From a virus (taxonomy: Duplodnaviria > Heunggongvirae > Uroviricota > Caudoviricetes): DNA of 64,000 bases. Position numbers and translations under genes: made by a program. Numbering within the stretch: the first letter of the stretch is position 1; every line of letters begins with the position of its first letter. Below, one piece after another: positions 17,881 to 33,277 of this stretch. Under the pieces are notes generated by a model. The model was not told where the DNA came from. It saw only the letters and a program-made list of their open reading frames with translations, and made no database searches. Location: positions 60,076 through 124,075 of the IMG/VR virus record IMGVR_UViG_3300024259_001450. One strand, written 5' to 3'.

Positions 17881-18570
17881 ATGGTATGCGCGATTTTGGG
17901 CAGAGGTCAAAGTCTAAAAAAATACACTGATTATTGTGACAAAATTGACAAAGTATATATTGTCAATGATTTTAATAATGAGTTAGAAACCATTGGTACA
18001 GAATGTTTTGAAGGTAAGAGATTGAATCATGTTGTTGGGCGCGGACCCAATCAACTAAAAGCTTCATGGTATAAAAAACTAGGTCTGAATAAAGTGATAT
18101 GTAATTCATTTGTAAAATCGGATTTCAAAAACACTTACCCCGTTAAGATTAAATATCTTGATGACGAAATGCTGAACTGTGGTTATCCACCTGTCGGTAT
18201 GGAAAATATACAGAAGTTAATGGAAAAATGCGACTCATATAAAGAGCTTATAGATTTGTTAGACAGAAAAATAAAGAAGGGCAAACTGCAATTGAGGCAT
18301 AAGAAGAGGAGGGCATGGCCCACAACTGCTTTTGTTGCTCTCGATGTGTGTTTGGTGAAAGACAAACCAGAAAAGGTTTATCTTTTTGGAATAGATTTTT
18401 ATAGAAATAACTATATGACTAAAAAAAACCGCACGCATCAAACAAGTGACTGGTATAAATCAAAAGCCATGATGACTCATTTGAACTTCATTGTAAAACT
18501 ATATGATCAAGTTGATTTTTACAGTTCTTACTCCCTCGATTGGGATTTAGATAATTGGTATAATATATAA
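17881..18570 (+). CDS. Maf/DUF115/sialyltransferase-like protein
   Basis: AILGRGQSL...VYIVNDF and WPTTAFVAL...KVYLFGIDFY motifs. Confidence 0.55.
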   Translation: MVCAILGRGQSLKKYTDYCDKIDKVYIVNDFNNELETIGTECFEGKRLNHVVGRGPNQLKASWYKKLGLNKVICNSFVKSDFKNTYPVKIKYLDDEMLNCGYPPVGMENIQKLMEKCDSYKELIDLLDRKIKKGKLQLRHKKRRAWPTTAFVALDVCLVKDKPEKVYLFGIDFYRNNYMTKKNRTHQTSDWYKSKAMMTHLNFIVKLYDQVDFYSSYSLDWDLDNWYNI

Positions 18571-19589
18571 TGAAAAAGAGATTAGTATTTAAAAGATCGA
18601 TGATGCAGAGATATAGGGCAATAGCCAATATCGCTGACGACTTAGTAAACCGTGGATACGAATTGTTTGTAGAAGTGCAATCCAATGAATTCGATTTAAA
18701 TGAGATCAGAAAACACCCTATGGATGCATCGAGGGCGAGTAAAAAATCATTTGTATATTTATTAAACAATTTTGGCATACAGTGTGACAATCTAGATGAT
18801 ATAGTTTTCACTACTGAAAAAAATAAAATAGATGGTCTATTTTTGTTAGTTGATGATAAAACAAACAGTAAAAAGTATATTTCAATTCCTTACAATGGGT
18901 TTTATTGTATGGACGGTAAAGATAAAGTGCTAGTCGGGAACCCGATGTGTGAAATGATTAAAAAAAGTCAGAGTAAAAATAAAGAGCAAAAAAATACTTT
19001 GTTATTGATCCACCCCGGCGGCGGCAGAGGATATATTTCTCCTGTGAGACAACCATTATCGAAAGCAAAAACTATAAAGAATAATATTAGATTTTTAAGA
19101 AAAATACTGAGAAATTTACCAAATACTATTAAAAAAGTTACCATTAAAACTCATCCGGTTCCTTATCTGTGTTGTGATTACAAGGCGATGCAAAAAAAAG
19201 TTATGAACATTTTGCGTGATGAATTTTCTGATATAGAAATCAATTTAGTGTTTGATAATTTTATTTTGCATGTTGCTGAACATGAATACATTCTTAATAT
19301 CGGTAGTACATCTGCGATTTGGCTATTGGGAAGTGATAAAAAATGGATTAATCTTTTTGGTTTGGCGAAATATGACTATAAGAAACATAGAGACATTAGA
19401 CCGCGTGCTGATAAGTGGTTCAAGTGGCCGCAAAACATCAAATTAAAATATTTGCATGATTTTGTATTAGATTATAACAGTCGTATCGAGCTTGATAAAG
19501 AGACATCAGATATAAGGGAAAAAAATAAAGAAATTTATAATATGGATGCTACGCAGAACATAATTGATTTTATTGATCACAGGAGTTAA
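18570..19589 (+). CDS. hypothetical protein, possible GT-B-fold transferase
   Basis: LLIHPGGG, VTIKTHP (HP-type motif), LNIGSTSAIWLL; context inside the glycan locus. Confidence 0.4.
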   Translation: MKKRLVFKRSMMQRYRAIANIADDLVNRGYELFVEVQSNEFDLNEIRKHPMDASRASKKSFVYLLNNFGIQCDNLDDIVFTTEKNKIDGLFLLVDDKTNSKKYISIPYNGFYCMDGKDKVLVGNPMCEMIKKSQSKNKEQKNTLLLIHPGGGRGYISPVRQPLSKAKTIKNNIRFLRKILRNLPNTIKKVTIKTHPVPYLCCDYKAMQKKVMNILRDEFSDIEINLVFDNFILHVAEHEYILNIGSTSAIWLLGSDKKWINLFGLAKYDYKKHRDIRPRADKWFKWPQNIKLKYLHDFVLDYNSRIELDKETSDIREKNKEIYNMDATQNIIDFIDHRS

Positions 19590-19590
19590 T

Positions 19591-20475
19591 ATGGAAAATT
19601 TGATATTGAAAGATTTTGGCGAACATCAGATGTACCTCATCAAGAATGATGACGGCATAAGTAGGACTTTAAACAAGAAACATGGGTATAACAAGAGAGA
19701 GTTGGCGTTTATGACATTGATCAGAGAAAATGTCGAACCAGGTCAAGTATGTTTTGATGTCGGAGCTAACATAGGATTTGTTACATTGATTCTTGCGAAA
19801 CTTGTTGGAAAAGATGGAACTGTATATGCAGTAGAACCAACAAAACAAAACTACAAAGTTCTGAAAAAAAACATACGATTGAATGGCTATGAGAACAATA
19901 TATTTCCCAAAAGATTAGCCGTATCTAATAAGATGGGAAATGCTACTTTGTACTTATCTGGTCAATCAAATTTGAGTTCTCTTTCTAAACACAGCAAAAC
20001 CGATCCTGGAAGAAAAGAACAGGTCAACACGGTAACAATTGACGAATACCTTAAAGACAAAAAGATACCTGATATGTATAAAATGGATATAGAGGGTCAC
20101 GAAGTCAAGGTCTTAAATGGTATGCATGAAACAGCAACAAAATCATTGCCGGGCACAAAGATTTTTATGGAAGTACACCCTAAACTATATGGTAAAAAAC
20201 TAGATATGGAGGATGCTCTAAAAAGGTTTGTTAAGTTGGGATTCAAATTCAAATATGTTGTTTCTGCTGCCGTTGCTCAACCTAAACTGTTTAAGAAAAG
20301 AGGATACGAACCAACGAGGGTGTTCAATGTGAGTGGTTGGCAACGAGGTATATATGAGAATATCTCTACGGAAGACGCAATATATTTTTGTTCATATCCA
20401 CACAAAGAGCATGTGCCAGAGAAGAATAAGACATCACCGAAAATAGTTAGATATATTATTTTGGAGAAAATATAA
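19591..20475 (+). CDS. FkbM family methyltransferase
   Basis: FDVGANIGF, YAVEPT, VTIDEY, KMDIEGHEVKVLNG; AGGAG SD at 19581-19585. Confidence 0.9.
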   Translation: MENLILKDFGEHQMYLIKNDDGISRTLNKKHGYNKRELAFMTLIRENVEPGQVCFDVGANIGFVTLILAKLVGKDGTVYAVEPTKQNYKVLKKNIRLNGYENNIFPKRLAVSNKMGNATLYLSGQSNLSSLSKHSKTDPGRKEQVNTVTIDEYLKDKKIPDMYKMDIEGHEVKVLNGMHETATKSLPGTKIFMEVHPKLYGKKLDMEDALKRFVKLGFKFKYVVSAAVAQPKLFKKRGYEPTRVFNVSGWQRGIYENISTEDAIYFCSYPHKEHVPEKNKTSPKIVRYIILEKI

Positions 20476-21146
20476 TGCCAATTGATCAGGACAAAATAAT
20501 GTCTCAATTAGAAAAATCCATAAGAGATGTTAATAAACCAGTTATTGTAGACATAGGGGCTTACACCGGTCACCTTGCACTAAAGTTATGCAAGAATTTA
20601 AAAGATTACAGGGTTTATTGTATAGAAGCGTGTAAGAAAAATTTTAAGGTTCTTTCTAACGAGACAAAAGATGATGACAGAATTTCGTCTCATCATATAG
20701 CCATCGCATCGTATGATGGGATAGCTAGATTCTATGTGGCAAAAAGTGAAAAAACGAAAAAGGGTTCATCGCAAGCCAATAGCTTATACAAAAAATTCTT
20801 GGAGAGTAAAGATTGGGCGAGAATAAAAGAGAAAGAGATAGAGTGCATGACTCTTGATACTTTTTGTTCGGAAAATGATATAGATAAAATAGATTGTTTG
20901 AAAATTAATTGTGAAGGTTGTGAGTTCGATATATTTGATTCTCCAACTAAAAAATTCTTGGAAATTACCAGTGTTTTGTACGTAGAGATGCATGGTAAGT
21001 GTAATCAATTTAATTCCAATTCATTTTGCAATAAGAAAAAAGAAATCATAAATTGCTTGGGGCAGTACAATTTTGAAATGATTAGTGGGGATAATGATAT
21101 AAATAGTAAAACGCACATACGACAATTATGGGTGAAAAAGATATGA
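20475..21146 (+). CDS. FkbM family methyltransferase
   Basis: IVDIGAYTG, YCIEAC, MTLDTF, LKINCEGCEFDI, YVEMH. Confidence 0.9.
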   Translation: MPIDQDKIMSQLEKSIRDVNKPVIVDIGAYTGHLALKLCKNLKDYRVYCIEACKKNFKVLSNETKDDDRISSHHIAIASYDGIARFYVAKSEKTKKGSSQANSLYKKFLESKDWARIKEKEIECMTLDTFCSENDIDKIDCLKINCEGCEFDIFDSPTKKFLEITSVLYVEMHGKCNQFNSNSFCNKKKEIINCLGQYNFEMISGDNDINSKTHIRQLWVKKI

Positions 21147-21643
21147 GTGAAATTTCATTGATAAAATTAGATAAATTAATGAAAAAACAATTTTTCATGA
21201 GAAAATTTTGGAGATATGACATAATTGTAAAATATATGTTTATGGAAAGGTATTTTAAACAGAATAAACCTGAAAAATTTAAATATAAGTTGTATGATCA
21301 ACTTTATAAGGGCATATCTAAACATAAACGAGTTAAAGATGAAGATTTTATATCGTTGATAGCCTCTTTTGAAGAAAAGGGATATGATAATGAATTTCCT
21401 ATAAGTGTTGGCAAAAAAGAAGGTTATCTTTGTGGAGGAAGTCATAGAATTGCCTGCTGTTTATGGTTTGGTATTGATGAGATTCCCATCGTTGTTCACA
21501 GAAAATGTAAAAGAAAACCAGAAAGATACAGCAGTAATTGGATGAAAAGTCATGGTTTTCAAAATGATATGGCAGAAATAAAAAAAGTAAAAAAAATGGT
21601 ATTTAAAAAAATTGGGATACATAAATGGAAACCAATAGCGTAA
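21143..21643 (+). CDS. ParB/sulfiredoxin-fold protein, family copy 1 of 7
   Basis: RYDIIVKYMF...LIASFEEKGYD..FPI...CGGSHRIACCLWFGI; start refined from 21128. Confidence 0.65.
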   Translation: MSEISLIKLDKLMKKQFFMRKFWRYDIIVKYMFMERYFKQNKPEKFKYKLYDQLYKGISKHKRVKDEDFISLIASFEEKGYDNEFPISVGKKEGYLCGGSHRIACCLWFGIDEIPIVVHRKCKRKPERYSSNWMKSHGFQNDMAEIKKVKKMVFKKIGIHKWKPIA

Positions 21644-22107
21644 TAGAGAAATGTAATACTAAAGAATATATATCTCATCAAACGATAAATGGAAAATTCT
21701 CTAGATATGATTTGATTGTAAAATATATGTTTGTGGAAGAATATTTTAAGCAGGGTAAGCTCGATAACTTTAAATATAAGTTATATTCAAAAATTATAGC
21801 TACCCGTGACAGAGAGGCTCAACCTTGGAAATTTATTAAATTAATTAAATCTTTTGAAAATGTGGGATTCGATGACCAATATCATTTGTATATGACTCGT
21901 GATTACATAACAGGTGGCGGTAAACATCGTATAGCTTTATGTCTATGGTTTAACATACCTGAATTCCCAGTAATTTTTAGAGAACATTATAGAAATAAAA
22001 AGCGTAATTACACCGAAAAGAAGATGATCAAGTATGGATTTAAAAAATACATGCCAGATATAGAAAAAAACAGAAAGAATATATTCAATAAATTAGGGAT
22101 AGAATAA
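21625..22107 (+). CDS. ParB/sulfiredoxin-fold protein, family copy 2 of 7
   Basis: RYDLIVKYMF...LIKSFENVGFD...GGGKHRIALCLWFNI. Confidence 0.65.
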   Translation: METNSVIEKCNTKEYISHQTINGKFSRYDLIVKYMFVEEYFKQGKLDNFKYKLYSKIIATRDREAQPWKFIKLIKSFENVGFDDQYHLYMTRDYITGGGKHRIALCLWFNIPEFPVIFREHYRNKKRNYTEKKMIKYGFKKYMPDIEKNRKNIFNKLGIE

Positions 22108-22571
22108 TGAAATTGGTTGATTTAAGATTTTTATTATCTAAACAATTTGAAAGTGGAAAATTTTGTAAATATGATATTATTATTAGATATATGTTTATAA
22201 AAGCATATTACAAGAATGGAGAACCTGAAAATTTCAAATATAAACCATATTCTAGATTGGCATTATCAAGAGACACCAAAGATAGGAGTAAAAAATTCGT
22301 AAAACTTATTAAATCATTTGAAAAAGATGGGTTTGGAGAAGAATACCCGCCAATAGAATTCAGTCAAAATCATTTTATTTGTGGGGCTACTCATAGAATA
22401 GCATTATGTTTGTATTTTGGTATTAGTAAAATCCCATATAAATATAATGAAAAATGTAAACGAAAAAAGAGAAGATTCAATAAAATATGGTTAAAAGATA
22501 ACGGGTTTTCTCAATATGTGAATAAGATAGAAAAAACCAAGAATGAGATATTTAAAAAGCTAGGAATTTGA
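22107..22571 (+). CDS. ParB/sulfiredoxin-fold protein, family copy 3 of 7
   Basis: KYDIIIRYMF...LIKSFEKDGF...PPI...CGATHRIALCLYFGI. Confidence 0.65.
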   Translation: MKLVDLRFLLSKQFESGKFCKYDIIIRYMFIKAYYKNGEPENFKYKPYSRLALSRDTKDRSKKFVKLIKSFEKDGFGEEYPPIEFSQNHFICGATHRIALCLYFGISKIPYKYNEKCKRKKRRFNKIWLKDNGFSQYVNKIEKTKNEIFKKLGI

Positions 22572-22573
22572 TC

Positions 22574-23071
22574 ATGAAAATGGTATCTGTCAAAAATATA
22601 ATTTTAGGACAATTCAAAAATGATAAATTTTTACGGTATGATTTAGCTATAAAATATTTGTTTATAAAAAAATATTATAAAAAAAATAAACCTGAAAAAT
22701 TTCAATACAAGTTGTATGATTTATTATATTTAACAAAAAAAAGTAAAAAAAGACCTAATGGTGTTTCGGCTGAACACATTAGGAGAGAATATGACAAGTT
22801 TATGCCGTTGATCAATTCATTTGAAGAAAAAGGATATGATTCCAGTTATCCACTTTTTATGAATGATAAATATTTTATGTGCGGTGGAAGTCACAGATTG
22901 ATATTGTCTGTATGGTTTGATATAAAAAAAGTGCCAGTAATTTTTCTGGATCATTGTGAAGGCAAAAAAAGAAGGTATTCAAGACGGTGGATGAAAAGTT
23001 ATGGTTTTAAAAAATATATATCGCTTCTTGATGATACAAGAGATATAATTTTAAAGAAAGTAGGAATATAA
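22574..23071 (+). CDS. ParB/sulfiredoxin-fold protein, family copy 4 of 7
   Basis: RYDLAIKYLF...LINSFEEKGYD..YPL...CGGSHRLILSVWFDI; start refined from 22568. Confidence 0.65.
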   Translation: MKMVSVKNIILGQFKNDKFLRYDLAIKYLFIKKYYKKNKPEKFQYKLYDLLYLTKKSKKRPNGVSAEHIRREYDKFMPLINSFEEKGYDSSYPLFMNDKYFMCGGSHRLILSVWFDIKKVPVIFLDHCEGKKRRYSRRWMKSYGFKKYISLLDDTRDIILKKVGI

Positions 23072-23091
23072 TATATAGAAATTTTAACAAT

Positions 23092-23577
23092 ATGAAAAAG
23101 CAGTATATCCATTTAAAAGATTATCTACCAAAACAGTTCGATGGAAATTCTTTTTTTAGATATGATCTAATGGTTAGATACCTGTTTATTGAAAAATTTT
23201 ATGATTCTGGCGAGACAGCAGAGTTTAGATATAAACTTTATTCTAGATTCTATAAACATAGAAAGATAGAAGAGCGTAGTGAGAAGTTTATAAAAATAAT
23301 CAAATCTTTTGAAAAGAATGGATTTTTAGAAGATCGTGAACCATATATTGTTATGAGTAAAAAGTATAAAATGTGTGGTGGCAATCATAGAACTGCATGT
23401 TGCTTATGGTTCGGAATTCATACAATACCAGTATATATCCCTGATGATTTCTATGATGTTTGCAAACGTAAAAAAAGACGATGGGATAAACAATGGTTGA
23501 TTTCTCATGGTCTTAAAAAATATTTTAATCTTTTGGAAGATACAAGAGAAGTCATTTTTAAAAAAATAGGGATTTAA
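23092..23577 (+). CDS. ParB/sulfiredoxin-fold protein, family copy 5 of 7
   Basis: RYDLMVRYLF...IIKSFEKNGF...CGGNHRTACCLWFGI. Confidence 0.65.
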   Translation: MKKQYIHLKDYLPKQFDGNSFFRYDLMVRYLFIEKFYDSGETAEFRYKLYSRFYKHRKIEERSEKFIKIIKSFEKNGFLEDREPYIVMSKKYKMCGGNHRTACCLWFGIHTIPVYIPDDFYDVCKRKKRRWDKQWLISHGLKKYFNLLEDTREVIFKKIGI

Positions 23578-23578
23578 T

Positions 23579-24265
23579 ATGATAAATTTGAGAAATAAAG
23601 TACAACTTTTTGTGATAACTAATGGTCGTTCTACATACGAATACGTGATAAAAAGCCTAGAAAATCAAAATGTTGCTATTGATATAACTTCTATTAAAGA
23701 TATGAGATGGGTTGATGCTTTAAACAAGATATTTGATTTGTGTACAACTCCTTATTTTATAAGATGTGATGATGACTTTTTTATGCACCCATATTCTGTT
23801 AGTTTTATGTATGATACAATTTGTAAAAAAGAGGATGCTGTAATGGGAGAATTTAAACTGTGGGAAGATTGGTCAAAACGCATTAGTGGAGGAGTTAAAA
23901 TTTATAATACTCAACGAACTATAGAGCTTGGCAAGTTTAAAGAAAATCACAGGGGATCAGTAGACGGTAATTTTAGCCAAGCAATTAAAAACAGTAAATA
24001 CAGTACAACCGGAAGTAAAGGTAGCGTATTGGCAATACACGCAAGAGCTTCTTTGGATGAAATGTTGCAATATGAAAAGATATGGAATGATAATGAAAAT
24101 AAAACATTTATCAAATGGAAACCAGACAAAAAAACCACAAAACAAATGCTAAAATATAAAAAAAGTGTTGAAGATCAATTCAATATGAGAATAAATAAAT
24201 TAAGAAAAATCAACAGAAAAACAGAAAGCGATTTTTACAAAGTTATTAAAAAATATGAAAAATAA
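23579..24265 (+). CDS. putative GT-A (GT2-like) glycosyltransferase
   Basis: LFVITNGR, WVDALN, YFIRCDDDFF (DxD-like). Confidence 0.55.
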   Translation: MINLRNKVQLFVITNGRSTYEYVIKSLENQNVAIDITSIKDMRWVDALNKIFDLCTTPYFIRCDDDFFMHPYSVSFMYDTICKKEDAVMGEFKLWEDWSKRISGGVKIYNTQRTIELGKFKENHRGSVDGNFSQAIKNSKYSTTGSKGSVLAIHARASLDEMLQYEKIWNDNENKTFIKWKPDKKTTKQMLKYKKSVEDQFNMRINKLRKINRKTESDFYKVIKKYEK

Positions 24266-25715
24266 TTCTAAAATAAAAAAGGTTGCTTTAGCTAGGGTTA
24301 ATTATTCACAATTATATGGTGTATATGATGATGGAAAAACATATGAGCATAGAGATATATTGGTCCCGTACCAATTATTAATATTAGCATCTTATATACG
24401 AAGCGATAATTGTGTAGTGAAAATTTTTGATGGAGAAATCGATTTGTGTACAGGTGATGATTTGGCAAAACGTATACTAGATTGGGAACCAGATATAGTC
24501 GGTTTAACGGCTACAACTCCTGATATAGATTTGTGTATAGAAGTTTGTAGAATAATCAAAAAAAATAATGAATCTGTTATCACAATTATAGGTGGCCCAC
24601 ACGCTTCTGCTTTGCCAGATAATGTAGCACAGAATGATTGTGTTAACTATGTTGTTGTCGGCGATGGAGAACAGCCTCTAAGCGATATTATTAACAATGG
24701 TTATAACGTAAAAGATAAAATTATTATTGGGGAAAATCAGGATGTGTCACACGTTTCTATGCCTTCTCATGATTTGTTAGATTATAATTTATATCAATTC
24801 ACTGATCCTAATCGCGGGAGAATGAATACGGCTTCTGTAATGTCTAGTAGGGGGTGTCCTTTTAATTGTAATTTTTGTTTTCATAATAGGAATTTGAGAT
24901 ACAGAAATATTGATTGTTTTATATCAGAAATAGAATATCTGTACAAAGAGAAAGATGTAAAATATTTTTATGTATATGACGATACTTTTTTGGTTAATAA
25001 ACAAAGAATATTGAATATAATTGATAAAATAAAAGATTTAAAGATAAGTGATGCTCATTTTCAGTGTCTTACAAGAGGCAATTTGGTGGATGAAGAATTA
25101 ATAAGCAAATTGCGAGATATAAACTTTGTAAGAATTTCTATGGGCATAGAATCAGGTTCTGATGAAGTTCTTGCTGCTGCCAACAAAGGGGTGAAAACAA
25201 AAGATTATGCCGTAGCATGTAAAACATTGAAAAAATTTGACATAGAAACGCGTGGTAGTTTTATTATAGGACATCCATACGACACAAAAGAAACTGTTAG
25301 AAAAACTATAGATTTTTCTAAAGAACTTGAATTATATCATGCCAATTTCAATATAATGACACCATATCCTGGCACCGAAGTATATCAAATGGCCCTTGAA
25401 GGAAAAGGAATACACTTTGATAAACCAGAATATGCTCATAAATGGGACATTTATCGAAGATGGGGTTCTTCGGTTATCTATACTGATGAGTTGTCATGTG
25501 ACGATTTAGAATTCTATCAAAAAGAATCTCAAATGGAATTTTATACTCAAGAAAAAATATATCGATATTATTATACACTGTTTAAAAATGGAAATAAATC
25601 TAAATACTTTTTTAGACCGTTGAATTTTTCGTGGAATAGAAAATTCGGAAAAGATATAGATTTTTGGGATAACTTAGGTGAAGAAAAAATAATTGAAACT
25701 GGTAGTAAAATATGA
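24255..25715 (+). CDS. cobalamin-dependent (class B) radical SAM enzyme
   Basis: N-terminal B12-binding region (EPDIVGLTATTP, IIGGPHAS, VVGDGE), SSRGCPFNCNFC (CxxxCxxC), YDDTF, GIESGS, TPYPGT. Confidence 0.9.
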   Translation: MKNNSKIKKVALARVNYSQLYGVYDDGKTYEHRDILVPYQLLILASYIRSDNCVVKIFDGEIDLCTGDDLAKRILDWEPDIVGLTATTPDIDLCIEVCRIIKKNNESVITIIGGPHASALPDNVAQNDCVNYVVVGDGEQPLSDIINNGYNVKDKIIIGENQDVSHVSMPSHDLLDYNLYQFTDPNRGRMNTASVMSSRGCPFNCNFCFHNRNLRYRNIDCFISEIEYLYKEKDVKYFYVYDDTFLVNKQRILNIIDKIKDLKISDAHFQCLTRGNLVDEELISKLRDINFVRISMGIESGSDEVLAAANKGVKTKDYAVACKTLKKFDIETRGSFIIGHPYDTKETVRKTIDFSKELELYHANFNIMTPYPGTEVYQMALEGKGIHFDKPEYAHKWDIYRRWGSSVIYTDELSCDDLEFYQKESQMEFYTQEKIYRYYYTLFKNGNKSKYFFRPLNFSWNRKFGKDIDFWDNLGEEKIIETGSKI

Positions 25716-26761
25716 AAATTCTTGATATCACAACTTCTCGTCGAGCCTATATGCTTTATAATAATATAAAGCCTCATGACGATTACAAATTTTTTCTATC
25801 TAACCAGTATGATGAGAATGATCTTAGAACAAATTTTCCCAAATGCCTTGATAATTTGATCGATAAAAACAACTTAGATCAATTTAAAGATTTTGATGCG
25901 TGTATATTTCATACTTGTTCTATTCTGTATCGTAAATATGATAAAAAAATAGAATCATTTGTCAATTCATTTGGTGGAAAAATTTTTGCAGTAGATTATG
26001 CCTGGGAATGTTCTAGACGAAGAAGAAGGCATACTAATAAGAGATTTAAACGTAATATAAGCGGATTAGGCGTAGCAATATCTAAGAATGAAACAAAAGT
26101 TCCATTTTTTCCATATAGCCAACCTGACTTAGATATATTCGCTCAGGTTGAAAAATTTAGAACTCGCAAAGAAATTGCAAAATGTTATAATATACCTGAT
26201 GGATTTAAATATTTATTAATAACAGTTCAAAAGATGTCATTTGTTGATAAAAAGATGAAACTTTTTTGTAAGTTTTTACGAACTCTTGATGATGTATTTT
26301 TGATATGGAAAATAAAAGAAAAACACTCGAAACAAGCAAAAATGTTATCAAAATACATGAAGCAATTTGGACTGAATGAATATATTATAATTATTAGGCA
26401 ACCAAAAGAAATACTAAAAAAAACGTCACAACCAGAGGGGAAAAATTTTAGAAGTTTTATATCTCCTATGTGTGATCTATCTGTGATATCTGATGTCCAT
26501 ATAAATTTGTCTCCACTTAGTTATACACAAGTAGAAACAATAAGAGCAGGTATTCCTACGTATTATTTTACCAAGCGAGGATTTAGTCGAGTAGATGATG
26601 TAGAAGATATAAAAAAGCATATGTGGAAGGAAGAAGCAGTAGAAAAATATTTCAGCTTCCGATTAAATAAAAGAGAATCTAATTTAAAAGTTAAAGACAA
26701 CTTTTGTACAATGCAATTTCTTAAAAATATTGCTAAATCTATAGGAGATACCATACAATGA
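25712..26761 (+). CDS. hypothetical protein, possible GT-B-fold transferase
   Basis: 349 aa; C-terminal ISDVHINLSPLSYTQVETIRAGIPTY resembles the GT-B donor-binding region; locus context. Confidence 0.35.
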   Translation: MKILDITTSRRAYMLYNNIKPHDDYKFFLSNQYDENDLRTNFPKCLDNLIDKNNLDQFKDFDACIFHTCSILYRKYDKKIESFVNSFGGKIFAVDYAWECSRRRRRHTNKRFKRNISGLGVAISKNETKVPFFPYSQPDLDIFAQVEKFRTRKEIAKCYNIPDGFKYLLITVQKMSFVDKKMKLFCKFLRTLDDVFLIWKIKEKHSKQAKMLSKYMKQFGLNEYIIIIRQPKEILKKTSQPEGKNFRSFISPMCDLSVISDVHINLSPLSYTQVETIRAGIPTYYFTKRGFSRVDDVEDIKKHMWKEEAVEKYFSFRLNKRESNLKVKDNFCTMQFLKNIAKSIGDTIQ

Positions 26762-27393
26762 TTGATAAAAATTTGTTGTTGAAGAAAATACCAGAAATAG
26801 AGCCTGTTTGGCAAGAAATGGGTTGTCGGATATATCAAAAGGTGTGGCCCGGTAGCACAAAAAGTGAAAGACTGTGGGGGTCTGTGAATGCCATCAATTC
26901 CGTGTCGAAGATCACGGATTGCAGCAATTATAATATATTAGATATAGGATGTAATTGCGGGACATTATCAGTTGTTGCATCGGAACATTTCAAGAATGCT
27001 TTTGGAACAGACAAGGATGCAAAATCTATAGAAGGAGCTAAGGAAACTGCGAAATTTTTTAACAAAGATAATTGTTTTTTCAGACCTCACAATGTTAAGG
27101 GGTATATCGAGAACGGTTATTTCGAAAAAGATAACATCGAAGCGATCATGGCCTATCAGGTATTGTACTTGTTGTCTGATAAGGAAGTGAAATATTTATT
27201 GGATAGGATGGATAACGTTAAAGTGGTTATTTTTGGAGCCAGACCAAGCAAAAATCGTAGCAAAAATAAATATGGTCTTTGGTCAGTAAAAACAATAGTT
27301 AAGCATTTGGTCAAACCGTTTTTCAGTAAGCACAAAGTTTTATATAAATATAAAAGTAGATGGCCGTTAGTGATTGGTTATAAGGAAAGTTAA
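26758..27393 (+). CDS. class I SAM-dependent methyltransferase (paralog family A)
   Basis: ILDIGCNCGTLS, FGTDKD, YQVLYLL; collinear with 15340-15966. Confidence 0.8.
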   Translation: MIDKNLLLKKIPEIEPVWQEMGCRIYQKVWPGSTKSERLWGSVNAINSVSKITDCSNYNILDIGCNCGTLSVVASEHFKNAFGTDKDAKSIEGAKETAKFFNKDNCFFRPHNVKGYIENGYFEKDNIEAIMAYQVLYLLSDKEVKYLLDRMDNVKVVIFGARPSKNRSKNKYGLWSVKTIVKHLVKPFFSKHKVLYKYKSRWPLVIGYKES

Positions 27394-27394
27394 T

Positions 27395-28033
27395 ATGGGC
27401 ATAAGAGAAGCAAAAGAAACATTTAAAAATAAAAAACTAAAAAGAAAGATAGTTAAATTAGAAAAACTGTGGAATGATATAGGTGTTCATGAATATCATC
27501 GTTGGGGCACAAGACTTCTTAGGCCAATAGAATTGTTTGGTAAATTGAGTAAAGAAAAGCAGTTAGATAAATATAATTTATTGGATATAGGGTGTTATAA
27601 TGGTGTATTGTCTGTTATGGCAGCAAAGCATTTTAATAGCGTTATTGGAATAGAAAGACATAAAGATAGAACAGCAAGCGCTAGGATAACATTAAAAGAA
27701 CTCGGCAATTCAGGAAATTGTCGTTTTAAAAAGACAACTTTTAAGGCTTATGCCGAAAGGGGTTATTTCGCAAGACATGATATTAATGCGATATTGGCCA
27801 CACAGGTTTTGTACCATATGTCTACCGAAGAAATTGATTTATTAAAAAAACAACTAAAAAATAGAATTAAATTTGCGATGATAGGATCAAGGCCGAACAA
27901 AAACGCTTCACAAAATAAGTACGATTTAAGAACTACTGAATCTGTGCTTGAGATATTGATAAAGCCATATTTCGATAATTGGAAAATATATTATGAAGAC
28001 AAAAGGCATCCAATGATCGTCGCGGAAAAATAA
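27395..28033 (+). CDS. class I SAM-dependent methyltransferase (paralog family A)
   Basis: LLDIGCYNGVLS, IGIERH, TQVLYHM; start refined from 27374. Confidence 0.8.
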   Translation: MGIREAKETFKNKKLKRKIVKLEKLWNDIGVHEYHRWGTRLLRPIELFGKLSKEKQLDKYNLLDIGCYNGVLSVMAAKHFNSVIGIERHKDRTASARITLKELGNSGNCRFKKTTFKAYAERGYFARHDINAILATQVLYHMSTEEIDLLKKQLKNRIKFAMIGSRPNKNASQNKYDLRTTESVLEILIKPYFDNWKIYYEDKRHPMIVAEK

Positions 28034-30397: not shown

Positions 30398-30889
30398 GTG
30401 AAAATAGATAAAAATATAATTGTAATTGGTATCCCTTCGTGGAAATGGAAAAAGAAATTGTGTAGATATGCTCGTAAACATTTACATATTGTTAGATTTC
30501 CAATTAGTAAAAAATTATGCCATGAAAATTCTCGTCATTTTGAGGTATTACAGTTATTTGATAATGGGTGTATCGATTTTAGTGACACTGAATATTATAA
30601 ATTTAATATAGAAAATGGCAAAAGTAAAAAAGATGTAGTATCTAAAATACAATCATTTGAAGAACTATACAAATCTATTTGTTCAAAATATAAAGAAAAA
30701 AGTCCACCGATTATTACAGACGACGGTTGCAGATTGGATGGTTCTCATAGGCTATCGATCCTTGTTCATCTCGGGGTAGAATATGCCGATTTAAATGTTG
30801 TAAGCTATGAGTATTTGTTCTCAAAAGATAAATCCATGGAGATCAGAAAGCAAGTAAAAGAATACAGAAAGCAAGTTTACGGTTTATGA
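30398..30889 (+). CDS. ParB/Srx-fold-like protein (distant type, DGSHR)
   Basis: LYKSIC...PPIITDDGCRLDGSHRLSILVHLG. Confidence 0.6.
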   Translation: MKIDKNIIVIGIPSWKWKKKLCRYARKHLHIVRFPISKKLCHENSRHFEVLQLFDNGCIDFSDTEYYKFNIENGKSKKDVVSKIQSFEELYKSICSKYKEKSPPIITDDGCRLDGSHRLSILVHLGVEYADLNVVSYEYLFSKDKSMEIRKQVKEYRKQVYGL

Positions 30890-32096: not shown

Positions 32097-32630
32097 ATGG
32101 CAAGATATCAATACATTTTAGATAGACTCAATGAGATTGGATATAATGATGATCCTTTTGTGGTAGATTGTGCTTGTGGTTATGGGAAAGGTACAAAAAT
32201 ATTATCAGAGATAAAAGGATGTACTGTTAAAGGGTTTGATATATCTCCTAAAATTATTTCTAAATATGCTTCGTTTCAAGATATAGATGTCGCATGTGCA
32301 GATATAACATCTTTGCCTCTGAATGACAAAAGTGTAGATATTTTTGTTTGTTCTGAAACTTTGGAACACTTGACTGAAAAAGAAAGTATAAAAGCGGTTT
32401 CAGAAATATGTAGGGTATGTAAAAGCGATGCTGAAATTTGTATTACGGTTCCATTTGATAAGAGGAGTTTGAAAACAGGAAGTCATAAACAATTTATTAG
32501 TGAGAAAAAGATCAAAAAGATGTTTAATGGATACGATGTGTTACATTGCAGTTATTACAACTTGAAAAAAAGAAAGAAAACTAAAGGAGTAAAAGGTAAT
32601 TTAGTTATTATATTTAGGAAAAACACATGA
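32097..32630 (+). CDS. class I SAM-dependent methyltransferase (type 11)
   Basis: VDCACGYGKG, GFDIS, DITSLP, SETLEHL, ICITVP. Confidence 0.85.
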   Translation: MARYQYILDRLNEIGYNDDPFVVDCACGYGKGTKILSEIKGCTVKGFDISPKIISKYASFQDIDVACADITSLPLNDKSVDIFVCSETLEHLTEKESIKAVSEICRVCKSDAEICITVPFDKRSLKTGSHKQFISEKKIKKMFNGYDVLHCSYYNLKKRKKTKGVKGNLVIIFRKNT

Positions 32631-33277
32631 GTATTAGAGACATTGAAAAAGATTCAACAATTGTTATCGCTGGTTCTGGCGGCTCGATAAAGAAATATCA
32701 TTGGCGCATAACTGATTTTATAGAGAAAAATAATGCTAAAGTGCTTGGGATTAATTACATGACTAACTTATGTACTCCCGATTATCATCTGTGGACAAAC
32801 AAGCAACGCTATAGAGACTTGGGCGATTGTATTGATGATCGTTCGGTAATGATGTTTGGAGAAGGCATTTCAGAAGAGCTTATACGCAAACACCATCGAG
32901 GAGATTATATAACTATAGATTACATCGATCAAAAGGGGGAGAATTTTGGGTATAATGATGGTGTTATACGTGGGCATTTTAGAACGGCTGGCACTTTAGC
33001 TATTATGGTTGCACATGTAATGGGGGCGAAGAAAATACATATTGTTGGGATGGATGGGTATACTCTTTATAGTAGAAAGGAATTAGAAAAAGGTGATAAG
33101 AATCATCACTGCTACGGGAGTGGATATACAGATGACGCTAGTTGGGAAAAGTGTAAAAAGAAAGACAAAAAAGTATATAGTGCATTGCGCGGTTTACATG
33201 AATATGGAATTGATTTTGATATACTTACTCCCACTAAGTTCGAGGATTTTTATTATAAGGATATTTTGAATGATTAA
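32627..33277 (+). CDS. DUF115/Maf-like protein
   Basis: IVIAGSGGSI...LGINY and RTAGTLAIMVAHVMGAKKIHIVGMDGY; same fold pattern as 33-773. Confidence 0.6.
   Translation: MSIRDIEKDSTIVIAGSGGSIKKYHWRITDFIEKNNAKVLGINYMTNLCTPDYHLWTNKQRYRDLGDCIDDRSVMMFGEGISEELIRKHHRGDYITIDYIDQKGENFGYNDGVIRGHFRTAGTLAIMVAHVMGAKKIHIVGMDGYTLYSRKELEKGDKNHHCYGSGYTDDASWEKCKKKDKKVYSALRGLHEYGIDFDILTPTKFEDFYYKDILND

What the first reader, a model, noticed from the sequence alone, without database searches (positions are those of the whole stretch)
21143..23577. Tandem array of five small ParB/sulfiredoxin-fold paralogs (seven with the pair at 50907-51813) inside the glycan locus
Seen: five adjacent basic proteins of about 155-170 aa, plus two more 27 kb away. 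They share the consensus KQF..xF.RYD(I/L)..(K/R)Y(L/M)F...F.Y..Y...F..LI.SFE..G(F/Y)...PI......GGxHR.AxCLWFxI..IP...KKRRY...WM..HGF. Nucleotide similarity remains (aataaacctgaaaaattt near 21262 and 22685). Established: LxxSxxxxG..PI plus GxHR is the ParB/Srx nucleotide-binding core. Sulfiredoxin has GGCHR, and the kinases SerK and SbnI have DGHHR/DGVHR. Inference: these have no ParB HTH or dimerisation region and sit among sugar-modifying genes, so they are probably NTP-using enzymes (kinases or nucleotidyl activators) or glycan/nucleic-acid binders. Each copy may be tuned to a different substrate. I know of no described function for such an expanded stand-alone family; it may be the defining novel component of this system.
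Basis: partly seen in the sequence, partly recalled or inferred. Interest (0 to 1): 0.87.

Follow-up and report, generated by a model that had tools for sequence, protein, structure and literature searches.

The report
Eight ParB/sulfiredoxin-fold genes in phage glycan locus
A very large uncultivated phage carries seven small paralogous genes, plus an eighth divergent one, for proteins with the nucleotide-binding fold of ParB and sulfiredoxin; they belong to a widespread, unnamed family that sits in sialic-acid-like sugar gene clusters, so they probably help build or decorate a surface sugar chain by a chemistry not yet known.

Summary
Five tandem genes (21128-23577) and a pair (50868-51813) encode basic proteins of 152-171 aa. 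They are 31-46% identical and share Q..F.RYD, SFE..G..P and G-x-H-R motifs. I found an eighth, divergent copy at 30398-30889.

The ParB/Srx fold call holds at a moderate level. The AlphaFold model has pLDDT 92. The top structural matches in PDB, BFVD and the ESM Atlas are all ParB, Noc, KorB, PadC, sulfiredoxin, SerK or SbnI. Scores are modest (Z 3.8-5.4), and no Pfam, NCBIfam or PDB sequence match exists.

The family is not phage-specific. It has 1114 representatives. About half are fused to an NDK-like domain, and often to a pol-beta-type nucleotidyltransferase, Maf or GT-B transferase, or methyltransferase. In bacteria the neighbours are NeuB and CMP-ulosonate synthetase(-HAD).

The seven phage copies are seven old orthogroups kept in fixed order in related phage contigs. 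Each has its own residues beside the invariant His-Arg.

My best reading is that they are NTP-dependent glycan-tailoring enzymes or cofactor-handling partners of cytidine-nucleotide-dependent transferases. The chemistry is unknown.

This scan has already flagged relatives on other DNA (e1-1834166, e1-4975851, e1-5199952 and others). I found no published description.

The parts
21128..21643 (+). Copy 1 (orthogroup pos1), 171 aa from 21128; the likely true start is ATG 21143. Box III motif LCGGSHR.
21625..22107 (+). Copy 2 (orthogroup pos2), 160 aa. It overlaps copy 1 by 19 nt. Motif TGGGKHR.
22107..22571 (+). Copy 3 (orthogroup pos3), 154 aa. Its start overlaps the stop of copy 2. Motif ICGATHR.
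22568..23071 (+). Copy 4 (orthogroup pos4), 167 aa from TTG 22568, with an alternative ATG at 22574. Motif MCGGSHR.
23092..23577 (+). Copy 5 (orthogroup pos5), 161 aa. This is the protein that was modelled (pLDDT 92). Motif MCGGNHR.
50868..51368 (+). Copy 6 (orthogroup pairA), 166 aa from 50868; the likely true start is ATG 50907. It lies directly after a Sulfotransfer_2 gene. Motif MCGGSHR.
51355..51813 (+). Copy 7 (orthogroup pairB), 152 aa. It overlaps copy 6 by 14 nt. Motif MRNGAHR.
30398..30889 (+). Eighth, divergent ParB/Srx-like protein of 163 aa with LDGSHR, the form usual in bacterial relatives. It lies between a GT1 gene and an unassigned 217-aa gene.
   Evidence: family profile E 6e-4; hhalign probability 94%, E 1e-7 over 55 columns; Atlas matches the same 899-member viral cluster and a 'ParB/Sulfiredoxin domain' cluster
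18570..21146 (+). Conserved upstream part of the block: an orphan GT-B protein (18570-19589; TagF/LIC12162/polysialyltransferase-like by Atlas, a lead only) and two FkbM methyltransferases (19564-20475, 20475-21146).
23579..28033 (+). Conserved downstream part of the block: a GT2-like gene (23579-24265), a B12-binding radical SAM gene (24255-25715), an orphan GT-B protein (25712-26761) and two class I methyltransferases (26758-28033).

Best explanation
The eight genes encode stand-alone members of an unnamed, widespread ParB/sulfiredoxin-fold nucleotide-binding family. That family works in surface-glycan pathways built on cytidine-nucleotide-activated donors, such as CMP-nonulosonic/ulosonic acids and TagF-type CDP donors. 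They are not DNA-partition proteins.

Each phage copy is a separate, old orthogroup with its own residues around an invariant His-Arg phosphate-binding pair and an invariant N-terminal Asp.

Most likely each binds an NTP (ATP or CTP) and uses it to phosphorylate or otherwise activate a different small substrate or glycan position, as the ParB/Srx-fold enzymes sulfiredoxin, SerK and SbnI do. This would add steps to the methylation, sulfation and glycosyl-transfer line encoded around them.

Shown: paralogy, fold class, family breadth, domain fusions, gene neighbourhoods and orthogroup structure. Inferred: nucleotide binding, catalysis and substrate. I put about 0.8 on 'ParB/Srx-fold glycan-pathway family' and about 0.35-0.4 on 'NTP-dependent phosphotransfer or activation'.
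For: Fold. The AF2 model has pLDDT 92. The nine best VIA matches against 48,161 chains are all ParB/Srx proteins (PadC Z 5.4, Srx 5.3, pNOB8 ParB, Osa, KorB, SerK 3.8, SbnI 3.8), and the next unrelated match scores Z 3.1 or less. The Foldseek PDB and BFVD lists are almost purely ParB/Noc/Srx/SerK/SbnI. Atlas ParB_N clusters follow the family's own clusters. ParB-like PHROGs match weakly.

Pocket. Across 175 representatives the box III motif reads [D110/G31/N26]-G166-[S115/A35]-H170-R173. Asp25, Tyr50 and Arg100 are invariant in 77 diverse domains.

Family and fusions. The family has 1114 representatives. Architectures are X alone 85, X-NDK-like 52, NTase-X-NDK-like 26 and X-NDK-like-NTase 8. 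The NDK-like fold has Foldseek E 1e-5 and TM 0.60-0.67, with an invariant His in IxHxGDN. Other fusions are to Maf/MptE-like, GT-B (Capsule_synth, Epimerase_2, Glyphos_transf), methyltransferase, NeuB and CTP_transf_3 domains.

Context. In 11 bacterial loci from many phyla, the three genes on each side include CTP_transf_3 nine times, NeuB eight, HAD five to six, MptE-like three and polysialyltransferase two. Bacillota have a NeuB, CMP-synthetase+HAD, GT-B+X operon. A phage-like contig has NeuB-like, X, GT29+CMP-synthetase.

Phage block. The order FkbM x2, five X, GT2-like, B12-rSAM, GT-B, MT x2, GT1 is kept in related contigs. The seven orthogroups have UFboot 95-100 and group-specific box III residues.
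Against: No activity or ligand was tested. Structural scores are modest: Foldseek E is at least 0.2 in PDB and Z is at most 5.4. No sequence profile reaches PF02195 or any solved ParB/Srx protein. The residue that aligns with the catalytic Cys of Srx or Glu of ParB is variable (S, K, T, N or A). The Asp of DGSHR is present in 73 of 88 NDK-fused members but is Gly or Asn in all seven phage copies, so these copies could be non-catalytic binders. The phage record has no NDK-like or NTase partner domain, and it is only about 38% complete. No phosphate-bearing product is known for this locus.
Confidence: 0.4

Rival explanations
1. The copies are non-catalytic nucleotide- or nucleotide-sugar-binding adaptors or switches. 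Each one binds a cytidine nucleotide or a CMP/CDP-activated donor and partners one particular tailoring enzyme or transferase (GT-B, Maf-like, FkbM, radical SAM). It would gate or specify that enzyme, as ParB-type CTP switches gate protein-protein contacts.
For: The phage copies have lost the Asp of DGSHR that is kept in 83% of NDK-fused members. The position of the catalytic Cys/Glu of Srx/ParB is variable. Genes overlap or abut, which suggests co-translation in fixed amounts. X is physically fused to transferases elsewhere (GT-B, Maf). The five-gene array is bracketed by two orphan GT-B proteins (leads only). Published work shows ParB-CTPase folds acting as NTP-binding switch modules with varied specificity (PMC12704722).
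Against: The His-Arg pair and the N-terminal Asp are as strictly conserved as in enzymes. The dominant fusion partner, an NDK-like domain with an invariant His, points to phosphotransfer chemistry. No partner has been identified.
Confidence: 0.25
2. The family recycles cytidine nucleotides. X would phosphorylate the CMP (or CDP) released by CMP/CDP-donor transferases. The NDK-like domain would make CTP, and the NTase domain or the neighbouring CMP-synthetase would re-make the activated donor. The phage copies would be the first step only, relying on host NDK.
For: The ParB fold is the known CTP-binding fold (PMC12704722). X goes with CMP-ulosonate synthetases and CMP-donor transferases (polysialyltransferase, GT29, KpsS-like, Maf) in every context examined. 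The X, NDK-like, NTase order of folds matches NMP to NDP to NTP to activated donor.
Against: One housekeeping-type reaction does not explain seven or eight anciently diverged, non-redundant paralogs with different pocket residues. Hosts normally have Cmk and Ndk. Nucleotide specificity cannot be read from sequence (PMC12704722, section 9). No assay has been done.
Confidence: 0.13
3. The proteins have a nucleic-acid-directed ParB-like role, such as DNA binding, nuclease activity or DNA hypermodification with sugars, and the 'glycan' locus in fact decorates phage DNA.
For: The proteins are very basic (pI 9.6-9.9) and carry a K/R-rich loop. Many phage ParB-fold proteins are tied to DNA methylases or nucleases (PMC12704722).
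Against: No HTH or nuclease domain is present. Bacterial relatives sit with NeuB, CMP-synthetase, polysialyltransferase, flippase-like and exosortase genes, which are surface-glycan loci. Fusions are to Maf and capsule-type transferases.
Confidence: 0.04

Closest known systems
Free L-serine kinases SerK (Thermococcus kodakarensis, PDB 5x0b) and SbnI (Staphylococcus, PDB 5ujd/5uje/6nr6)
   Same: They give the highest sequence identity among structural matches (20-26% over about 60-80 aligned residues). They are small-molecule phosphotransferases rather than DNA binders, which fits the metabolic context here.
   Different: Only about 70-80 residues align (Z 3.8). SerK and SbnI are proteins of about 240-254 aa with a second domain that is absent here. 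There is no sequence-level match. The phage copies have Gly or Asn in place of the Asp. The substrate and activity here are unknown.
Sulfiredoxin (Srx; PDB 6ky4, 1yzs, 3cyi)
   Same: Both are single-domain ParB/Srx-fold proteins of similar core size. The GG-x-HR motif resembles GGCHR. This is the second-best structural match (Z 5.3, 86 residues aligned). Srx uses ATP to phosphorylate its substrate.
   Different: The catalytic Cys position holds S, K, T, N or A. An extra N-terminal helical insert and C-terminal helices make the domain about 155 aa. The context is a glycan locus, not peroxiredoxin repair.
ParB-CTPase N-terminal domain (ParB, Noc, KorB, PadC; Pfam PF02195)
   Same: They share the core fold and the box II/box III layout. 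PadC is the best structural match (Z 5.4), and Foldseek probability for ParB reaches 0.92-0.97. The association with cytidine-nucleotide chemistry is suggestive.
   Different: There is no PF02195 hit. There is no HTH, no C-terminal dimerisation domain and no parA/parS context. The motif is G-x-H-R instead of G-E-R-R.
The unnamed ParB/Srx-like, NDK-like, NTase-like module of bacterial glycan loci, noted earlier in this scan (e1-4975851, e1-4493919, e1-1834166)
   Same: It is the same domain family by profile (E down to 1e-28 for fused forms). It has the same link to NeuB and CMP-synthetase loci.
   Different: The phage proteins are stand-alone. The phage record has no NDK-like or NTase domain. 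The copies form a distinct subfamily with GG/NG-x-HR and are expanded to seven plus one.

Membership tests
ParB/Srx fold superfamily (ParB_N PF02195 and relatives) | Sequence match to Pfam PF02195 at or above the gathering score | tested here: not met
   None of the seven proteins hits ParB_N even at E up to 1. Only weak ParB-like PHROG matches were found (E 0.0065-0.16).
ParB/Srx fold superfamily (ParB_N PF02195 and relatives) | Three-dimensional core fold of the ParB N-domain or sulfiredoxin | tested here: met
   The model has pLDDT 92. The nine top VIA matches are all ParB/Srx proteins with Z 3.8-5.4, against Z 3.1 or less for unrelated chains. The Foldseek PDB and BFVD lists are almost entirely ParB/Srx. 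Scores are modest, so this is fold-level support only.
ParB/Srx fold superfamily (ParB_N PF02195 and relatives) | Box II (S..x..G...P-I) and box III (G-x-x-R) phosphate-binding motifs | tested here: met
   SFE..G..P and G-x-H-R are present in all copies. Across 175 representatives His is found in 170 and Arg in 173.
ParB/Srx fold superfamily (ParB_N PF02195 and relatives) | Binds a nucleotide (CTP, ATP or ADP) | not testable with these tools
   This needs DRaCALA, ITC or a structure with ligand.
Canonical ParB (partition CTPase clamp) | HTH DNA-binding domain and C-terminal dimerisation domain | tested here: not met
   The proteins are 152-171 aa. No HTH_ParB or other HTH family was found. The model has only two short helices after the core.
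Canonical ParB (partition CTPase clamp) | GERR motif with a catalytic Glu, and a parA/parS context | tested here: not met
   The motif is G-x-H-R with x = S, K, T, N or A. The neighbours are glycan genes.
Sulfiredoxin | Catalytic Cys in the GGCHR motif | tested here: not met
   No orthogroup has Cys at that position. Across the family it is S in 115 and A in 35 of 175.
Free serine kinase (SerK/SbnI) | Two-domain protein of about 240-254 aa with sequence-level homology | tested here: not met
   Only residues 16-100 of 5x0b and 6-79 of 5ujd align. Profile searches of PDB sequences give no SerK or SbnI hit at E up to 10.
Free serine kinase (SerK/SbnI) | D-G-x-H-R motif | tested here: not met
   All seven copies have G or N in place of D. 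The eighth copy and 110 of 175 family representatives do have DG(S/A)HR.
Free serine kinase (SerK/SbnI) | Kinase activity on a small hydroxyl substrate | not testable with these tools
   This needs an enzyme assay.
Unnamed ParB/Srx-like family of ulosonic-acid and glycan loci (this scan's 'X' domain) | Full-length profile match, and occurrence in glycan loci with NeuB, CMP-synthetase or CMP/CDP-donor transferases | tested here: met
   There are 1114 representatives at E up to 1e-3, matching over nearly the whole 155-position profile. In the window, CTP_transf_3, a KpsS-like protein and an MptE-like protein lie in the same locus.

The most novel reading that the evidence does not exclude
The ParB-CTPase fold has been recruited into glycan synthesis as a cytidine-nucleotide handling module. 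X, alone or with its NDK-like and nucleotidyltransferase partners, would bind or re-phosphorylate the CMP or CDP released by CMP/CDP-donor transferases, or hand over the activated donor. In this phage each of eight diverged copies would be dedicated to one transferase or tailoring step. This would be a nucleotide-gated glycan assembly line of a kind not yet described.
Probability: 0.15. Interest if true: 0.8.

Novelty: new variant of a known kind. Interest (0 to 1): 0.62.

Why it matters
If these proteins are enzymes or nucleotide-gated partners in nonulosonic-acid glycan synthesis, they are an unrecognised and widespread component of sialic-acid-like sugar pathways. They occur in Bacteroidota, Bacillota, Verrucomicrobiota, Spirochaetota, Cyanobacteriota, Campylobacterota and phages. 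Current annotation (Pfam, NCBIfam, PHROGs) and the 2025 survey of the ParB-CTPase fold both miss them.

It would extend the ParB/Srx fold from DNA segregation, redox repair and serine phosphorylation into surface-glycan chemistry. It could also explain unassigned decorations on capsules, O-antigens, flagellins or phage virions.

The phage array offers seven naturally diverged specificities of one small, easily expressed protein, which makes a convenient test set.

Tried and rejected
- Pfam, NCBIfam and PHROG scans of the seven proteins gave nothing significant.
- Profile searches of PDB sequences with three alignments of increasing breadth gave only chance hits such as DDX58, kallikrein and Sec62.
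- A blastn search of the phage collection with the array found no match.
- A scan of viral contigs with the close-family alignment found no relatives.
I used the NDK-like domain alignment instead.
- A complex-prediction job for copy 6 with copy 7 returned 'no answer' (score 0.00). This is neither support for nor evidence against hetero-oligomers.
- A search for NDK-like or NTase partner domains in the whole 188-kb record found none. The one weak NTase-profile hit at window 32097 is a class I methyltransferase.
- BLASTP of the two orphan flanking proteins against the GT-B part of a GT-B+X fusion was not significant. Only Atlas leads tie them to TagF/polyST-like GT-B folds.
- T4-type capsid and portal families were not found in the record. 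Viral identity rests instead on phage DNA polymerase, helicase, ligase and Hoc-like hits.
- I considered and rejected canonical ParB, sulfiredoxin and SerK/SbnI membership (see Membership tests).
- I considered and rejected a recent tandem duplication, because the orthogroups are old.
Full report
**Observation.**
The window is bases 60076-124075 of a 188,075-bp IMG/VR virus record that CheckV rates about 38% complete. Nearly all genes lie on the + strand, and GC is 27-40%. Outside the window the record encodes a phage-type DNA polymerase (PHROG E 6e-232), a helicase, an NAD-ligase and a Hoc-like giant protein. It is therefore a fragment of a very large phage.

- The proteins are 152-171 aa, 31-46% identical pairwise, and have pI 9.6-9.9.
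- Each scores E 1e-59 to 1e-68 against the family profile.
- The exact 18-mer at 21263 and 22685 is real, and the genes form DNA repeat families at 60-70% identity.
- Adjacent genes overlap or abut.

A profile search of the whole record found an eighth, divergent copy at 30398-30889. It carries LDGSHR (profile E 6e-4; hhalign probability 94%, E 1e-7; Atlas neighbours).

**Fold.**
No Pfam, NCBIfam or PDB-sequence match exists. ParB-like PHROGs match weakly. An AlphaFold2 model of copy 5, built on a 33-sequence alignment, has pLDDT 92 and pTM 0.88.
- Foldseek against PDB finds nothing at E up to 1e-3. Even so, its list is almost purely ParB, Noc, KorB, PadC, Srx, SerK and SbnI, with 55-71 aligned columns at 2.1-3.3 Å.
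- An aligner that does not depend on Foldseek puts nine ParB/Srx proteins at the top of 48,161 chains. PadC scores Z 5.4, Srx 5.3, and SerK and SbnI 3.8. The first unrelated chain scores Z 3.1.
- BFVD gives the same picture.
- In the ESM Atlas, whole-domain matches (TM 0.80-0.84) are to unnamed clusters, one of them named 'ParB/Sulfiredoxin domain-containing'. ParB_N clusters follow at TM about 0.4.

I conclude that the core is ParB/Srx-like, with a family-specific helical insert and C-terminal helices. It has no HTH or dimerisation domain. This is fold-level support with modest scores. It is strengthened by the matching box II and box III motifs.

**The family is large and modular.**
An exhaustive profile search found 1114 representatives at E up to 1e-3 and 484 at E up to 1e-10. 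Only 11 reach E 1e-30, and these are the close phage subfamily.

Among the 175 sequences I held, the domain ('X') has these architectures:
- alone in 85;
- followed by a 145-aa domain 'Y' in 52;
- in the order Z-X-Y in 26;
- in the order X-Y-Z in 8.

Y is an NDK-like fold: the model has pLDDT 94, and Foldseek gives E 1e-5 and TM 0.60-0.67 to mimivirus and other NDKs. It has an invariant His in IxHxGDN. Z looks like a minimal pol-beta nucleotidyltransferase, with a GS...D.D motif and a weak DUF6036 hit. Other fusion partners are Maf/MptE-like, GT-B (Capsule_synth, Epimerase_2, Glyphos_transf), class I methyltransferase, NeuB and CTP_transf_3. Database names are 'hypothetical protein', or they name only the partner domain. 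The phage record contains no Y or Z.

**Context.**
I retrieved 29 bacterial loci through the Y domain. They span Bacteroidota, Bacillota, Verrucomicrobiota, Spirochaetota, Cyanobacteriota, Campylobacterota and Alphaproteobacteria. In 11 of them, the three genes on each side include:
- CTP_transf_3 nine times;
- NeuB eight times;
- HAD hydrolases five to six times, usually fused to the cytidylyltransferase;
- MptE-like three times;
- polysialyltransferase twice.

Two Bacillota carry an operon of NeuB, CMP-synthetase+HAD and GT-B+X. A phage-like contig has NeuB-like, X and a GT29+CMP-synthetase fusion in a row. Another member lies next to exosortase and UDP-glucose dehydrogenase genes.

In the window, the pair follows a KpsS-like gene (Capsule_synth E 6e-6), a methyltransferase, an HpcH aldolase, a CTP_transf_3 gene, a 2-hydroxyacid dehydrogenase and a sulfotransferase.

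The five-gene array sits in a block kept in related metagenomic phage contigs. The order is FkbM x2, five X, GT2-like, B12 radical SAM, a 343-349-aa protein, two methyltransferases and GT1. The 339-aa and 349-aa proteins that bracket the array are GT-B folds nearest to TagF, LIC12162 and polysialyltransferase-type clusters in the Atlas (leads only).

The common thread is transferases that use cytidine-nucleotide-activated donors.

**Paralog history.**
A maximum-likelihood tree of 45 close relatives resolves seven clades. Each of the five array positions is one clade across the window and two other contigs (UFboot 97-100). The two pair copies fall in two further clades (UFboot 95-100). The expansion is therefore old, and the order is conserved.

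The residues just before the invariant His-Arg are specific to each orthogroup:

| Orthogroup | Box III motif |
|---|---|
| pos1 | LCGGSHR |
| pos2 | TGGGKHR |
| pos3 | ICG(A/G)THR |
| pos4 | MCGGSHR |
| pos5 | MCGGNHR |
| pairA | MCGGSHR |
| pairB | RNG(A/G)HR |

This fits non-redundant roles. Family-wide the motif is [D/G/N]-G-[S/A]-H-R, with His in 170 and Arg in 173 of 175 sequences. Asp is present in 73 of 88 Y-fused members, but it is Gly or Asn in the phage subfamily.

**Mechanism.**
- Shown: a ParB/Srx-type pocket with strictly conserved His, Arg and an N-terminal Asp; physical and genomic coupling to CMP-ulosonate synthesis and transfer; frequent fusion to a phosphotransfer fold (NDK-like) and a nucleotidyltransferase.
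- Inferred: the proteins bind an NTP and use it.
- Best reading (about 0.35-0.4): they are phosphotransferases or activators in the manner of Srx, SerK and SbnI, each acting on a different substrate or glycan position.
- First rival (0.25): they are non-catalytic nucleotide or donor-binding partners of specific transferases or tailoring enzymes. The lost Asp and the variable 'catalytic' position favour this.
- Second rival (0.13): they recycle cytidine nucleotides, from CMP to CDP to CTP to activated donor. This explains the X-Y-Z architecture well but explains eight paralogs poorly.
- Third rival (0.04): they have a DNA-directed role.
- A co-folding test of copies 6 and 7 gave no answer.

**Comparison with known work, and novelty.**
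The closest characterised proteins are SerK and SbnI, sulfiredoxin, and ParB-type CTPase domains. The defining features of each are not met: the second domain and sequence homology of SerK/SbnI, the catalytic Cys of Srx, and the HTH, GERR motif and parA context of ParB.

The 2025 survey of the ParB-CTPase fold (PMC12704722) reports fusions to HTH, HNH, DNA methylases, Methyltransf_23 and others, with CTP, ATP or GTP binding. It mentions no polysaccharide, sugar or NDK link. The 2021 comparative overview of jumbo phages does not mention ParB at all. Targeted full-text searches found nothing relevant.

Earlier AI notes of this scan describe relatives in other genomes. I re-derived two of their points independently: the NDK-like/NTase module and the NeuB/CMP-synthetase association.

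I class this as a new variant of a known kind. It is an undescribed ParB/Srx-fold family with a new biological context.

Noticed in passing
window 30398-30889 (+): An eighth, divergent ParB/Srx-like protein of 163 aa with LDGSHR. It lies between a GT1 gene and an unassigned 217-aa gene, upstream of a hexapeptide acetyltransferase, a methyltransferase and an MptE-like (Maf-type) gene at 32627-33277.
   Followed up: partly
window 18570-19589 and 25712-26761 (+): Two proteins with no Pfam hit bracket the five-gene array. They look like GT-B folds of the TagF/LIC12162/polysialyltransferase group in the ESM Atlas (features 0.92-0.96, TM 0.6-0.69). This is the same GT-B group that is fused to the ParB/Srx-like domain in Bacillota.
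   Followed up: partly
L056:2332-5693: Another phage-like contig (Clp protease, YonD_N) carries a compact cassette. It holds a 249-aa NeuB/DAHP-synthase-like gene, a 161-aa ParB/Srx-like gene, and a 702-aa fusion of GT29 sialyltransferase-like and CMP-synthetase domains.
   Followed up: no
L060:7489-11452 and L061:7948-11899: A three-gene operon in Bacillota (Desertibacillus and another genome). It holds NeuB, a CMP-synthetase fused to a HAD phosphatase, and a GT-B transferase fused to the ParB/Srx-like domain, with a mannose-6-phosphate isomerase gene nearby. It may be a minimal KDN-type pathway.
   Followed up: no
L013:7362-8486 compared with L008:3561-4827: In one related phage contig a single ParB/Srx-like gene (nearest to orthogroup pos4) sits where another contig has a second methyltransferase paralog. 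Both lie between a sulfotransferase/GT2 pair and a GT1 gene.
   Followed up: no
window 53145-55024 (+): Directly after the glycan locus lie a LAGLIDADG-type homing-endonuclease-like gene with an HTH (53145-54107) and an RlaP-like nucleotidyltransferase of RNA-repair type (54098-55024).
   Followed up: no
window 52483-53087 (+): Two small overlapping ORFs of 112 and 113 aa with Lys/Arg-rich ends and no family match follow the 223-aa unassigned gene that comes after the pair.
   Followed up: no
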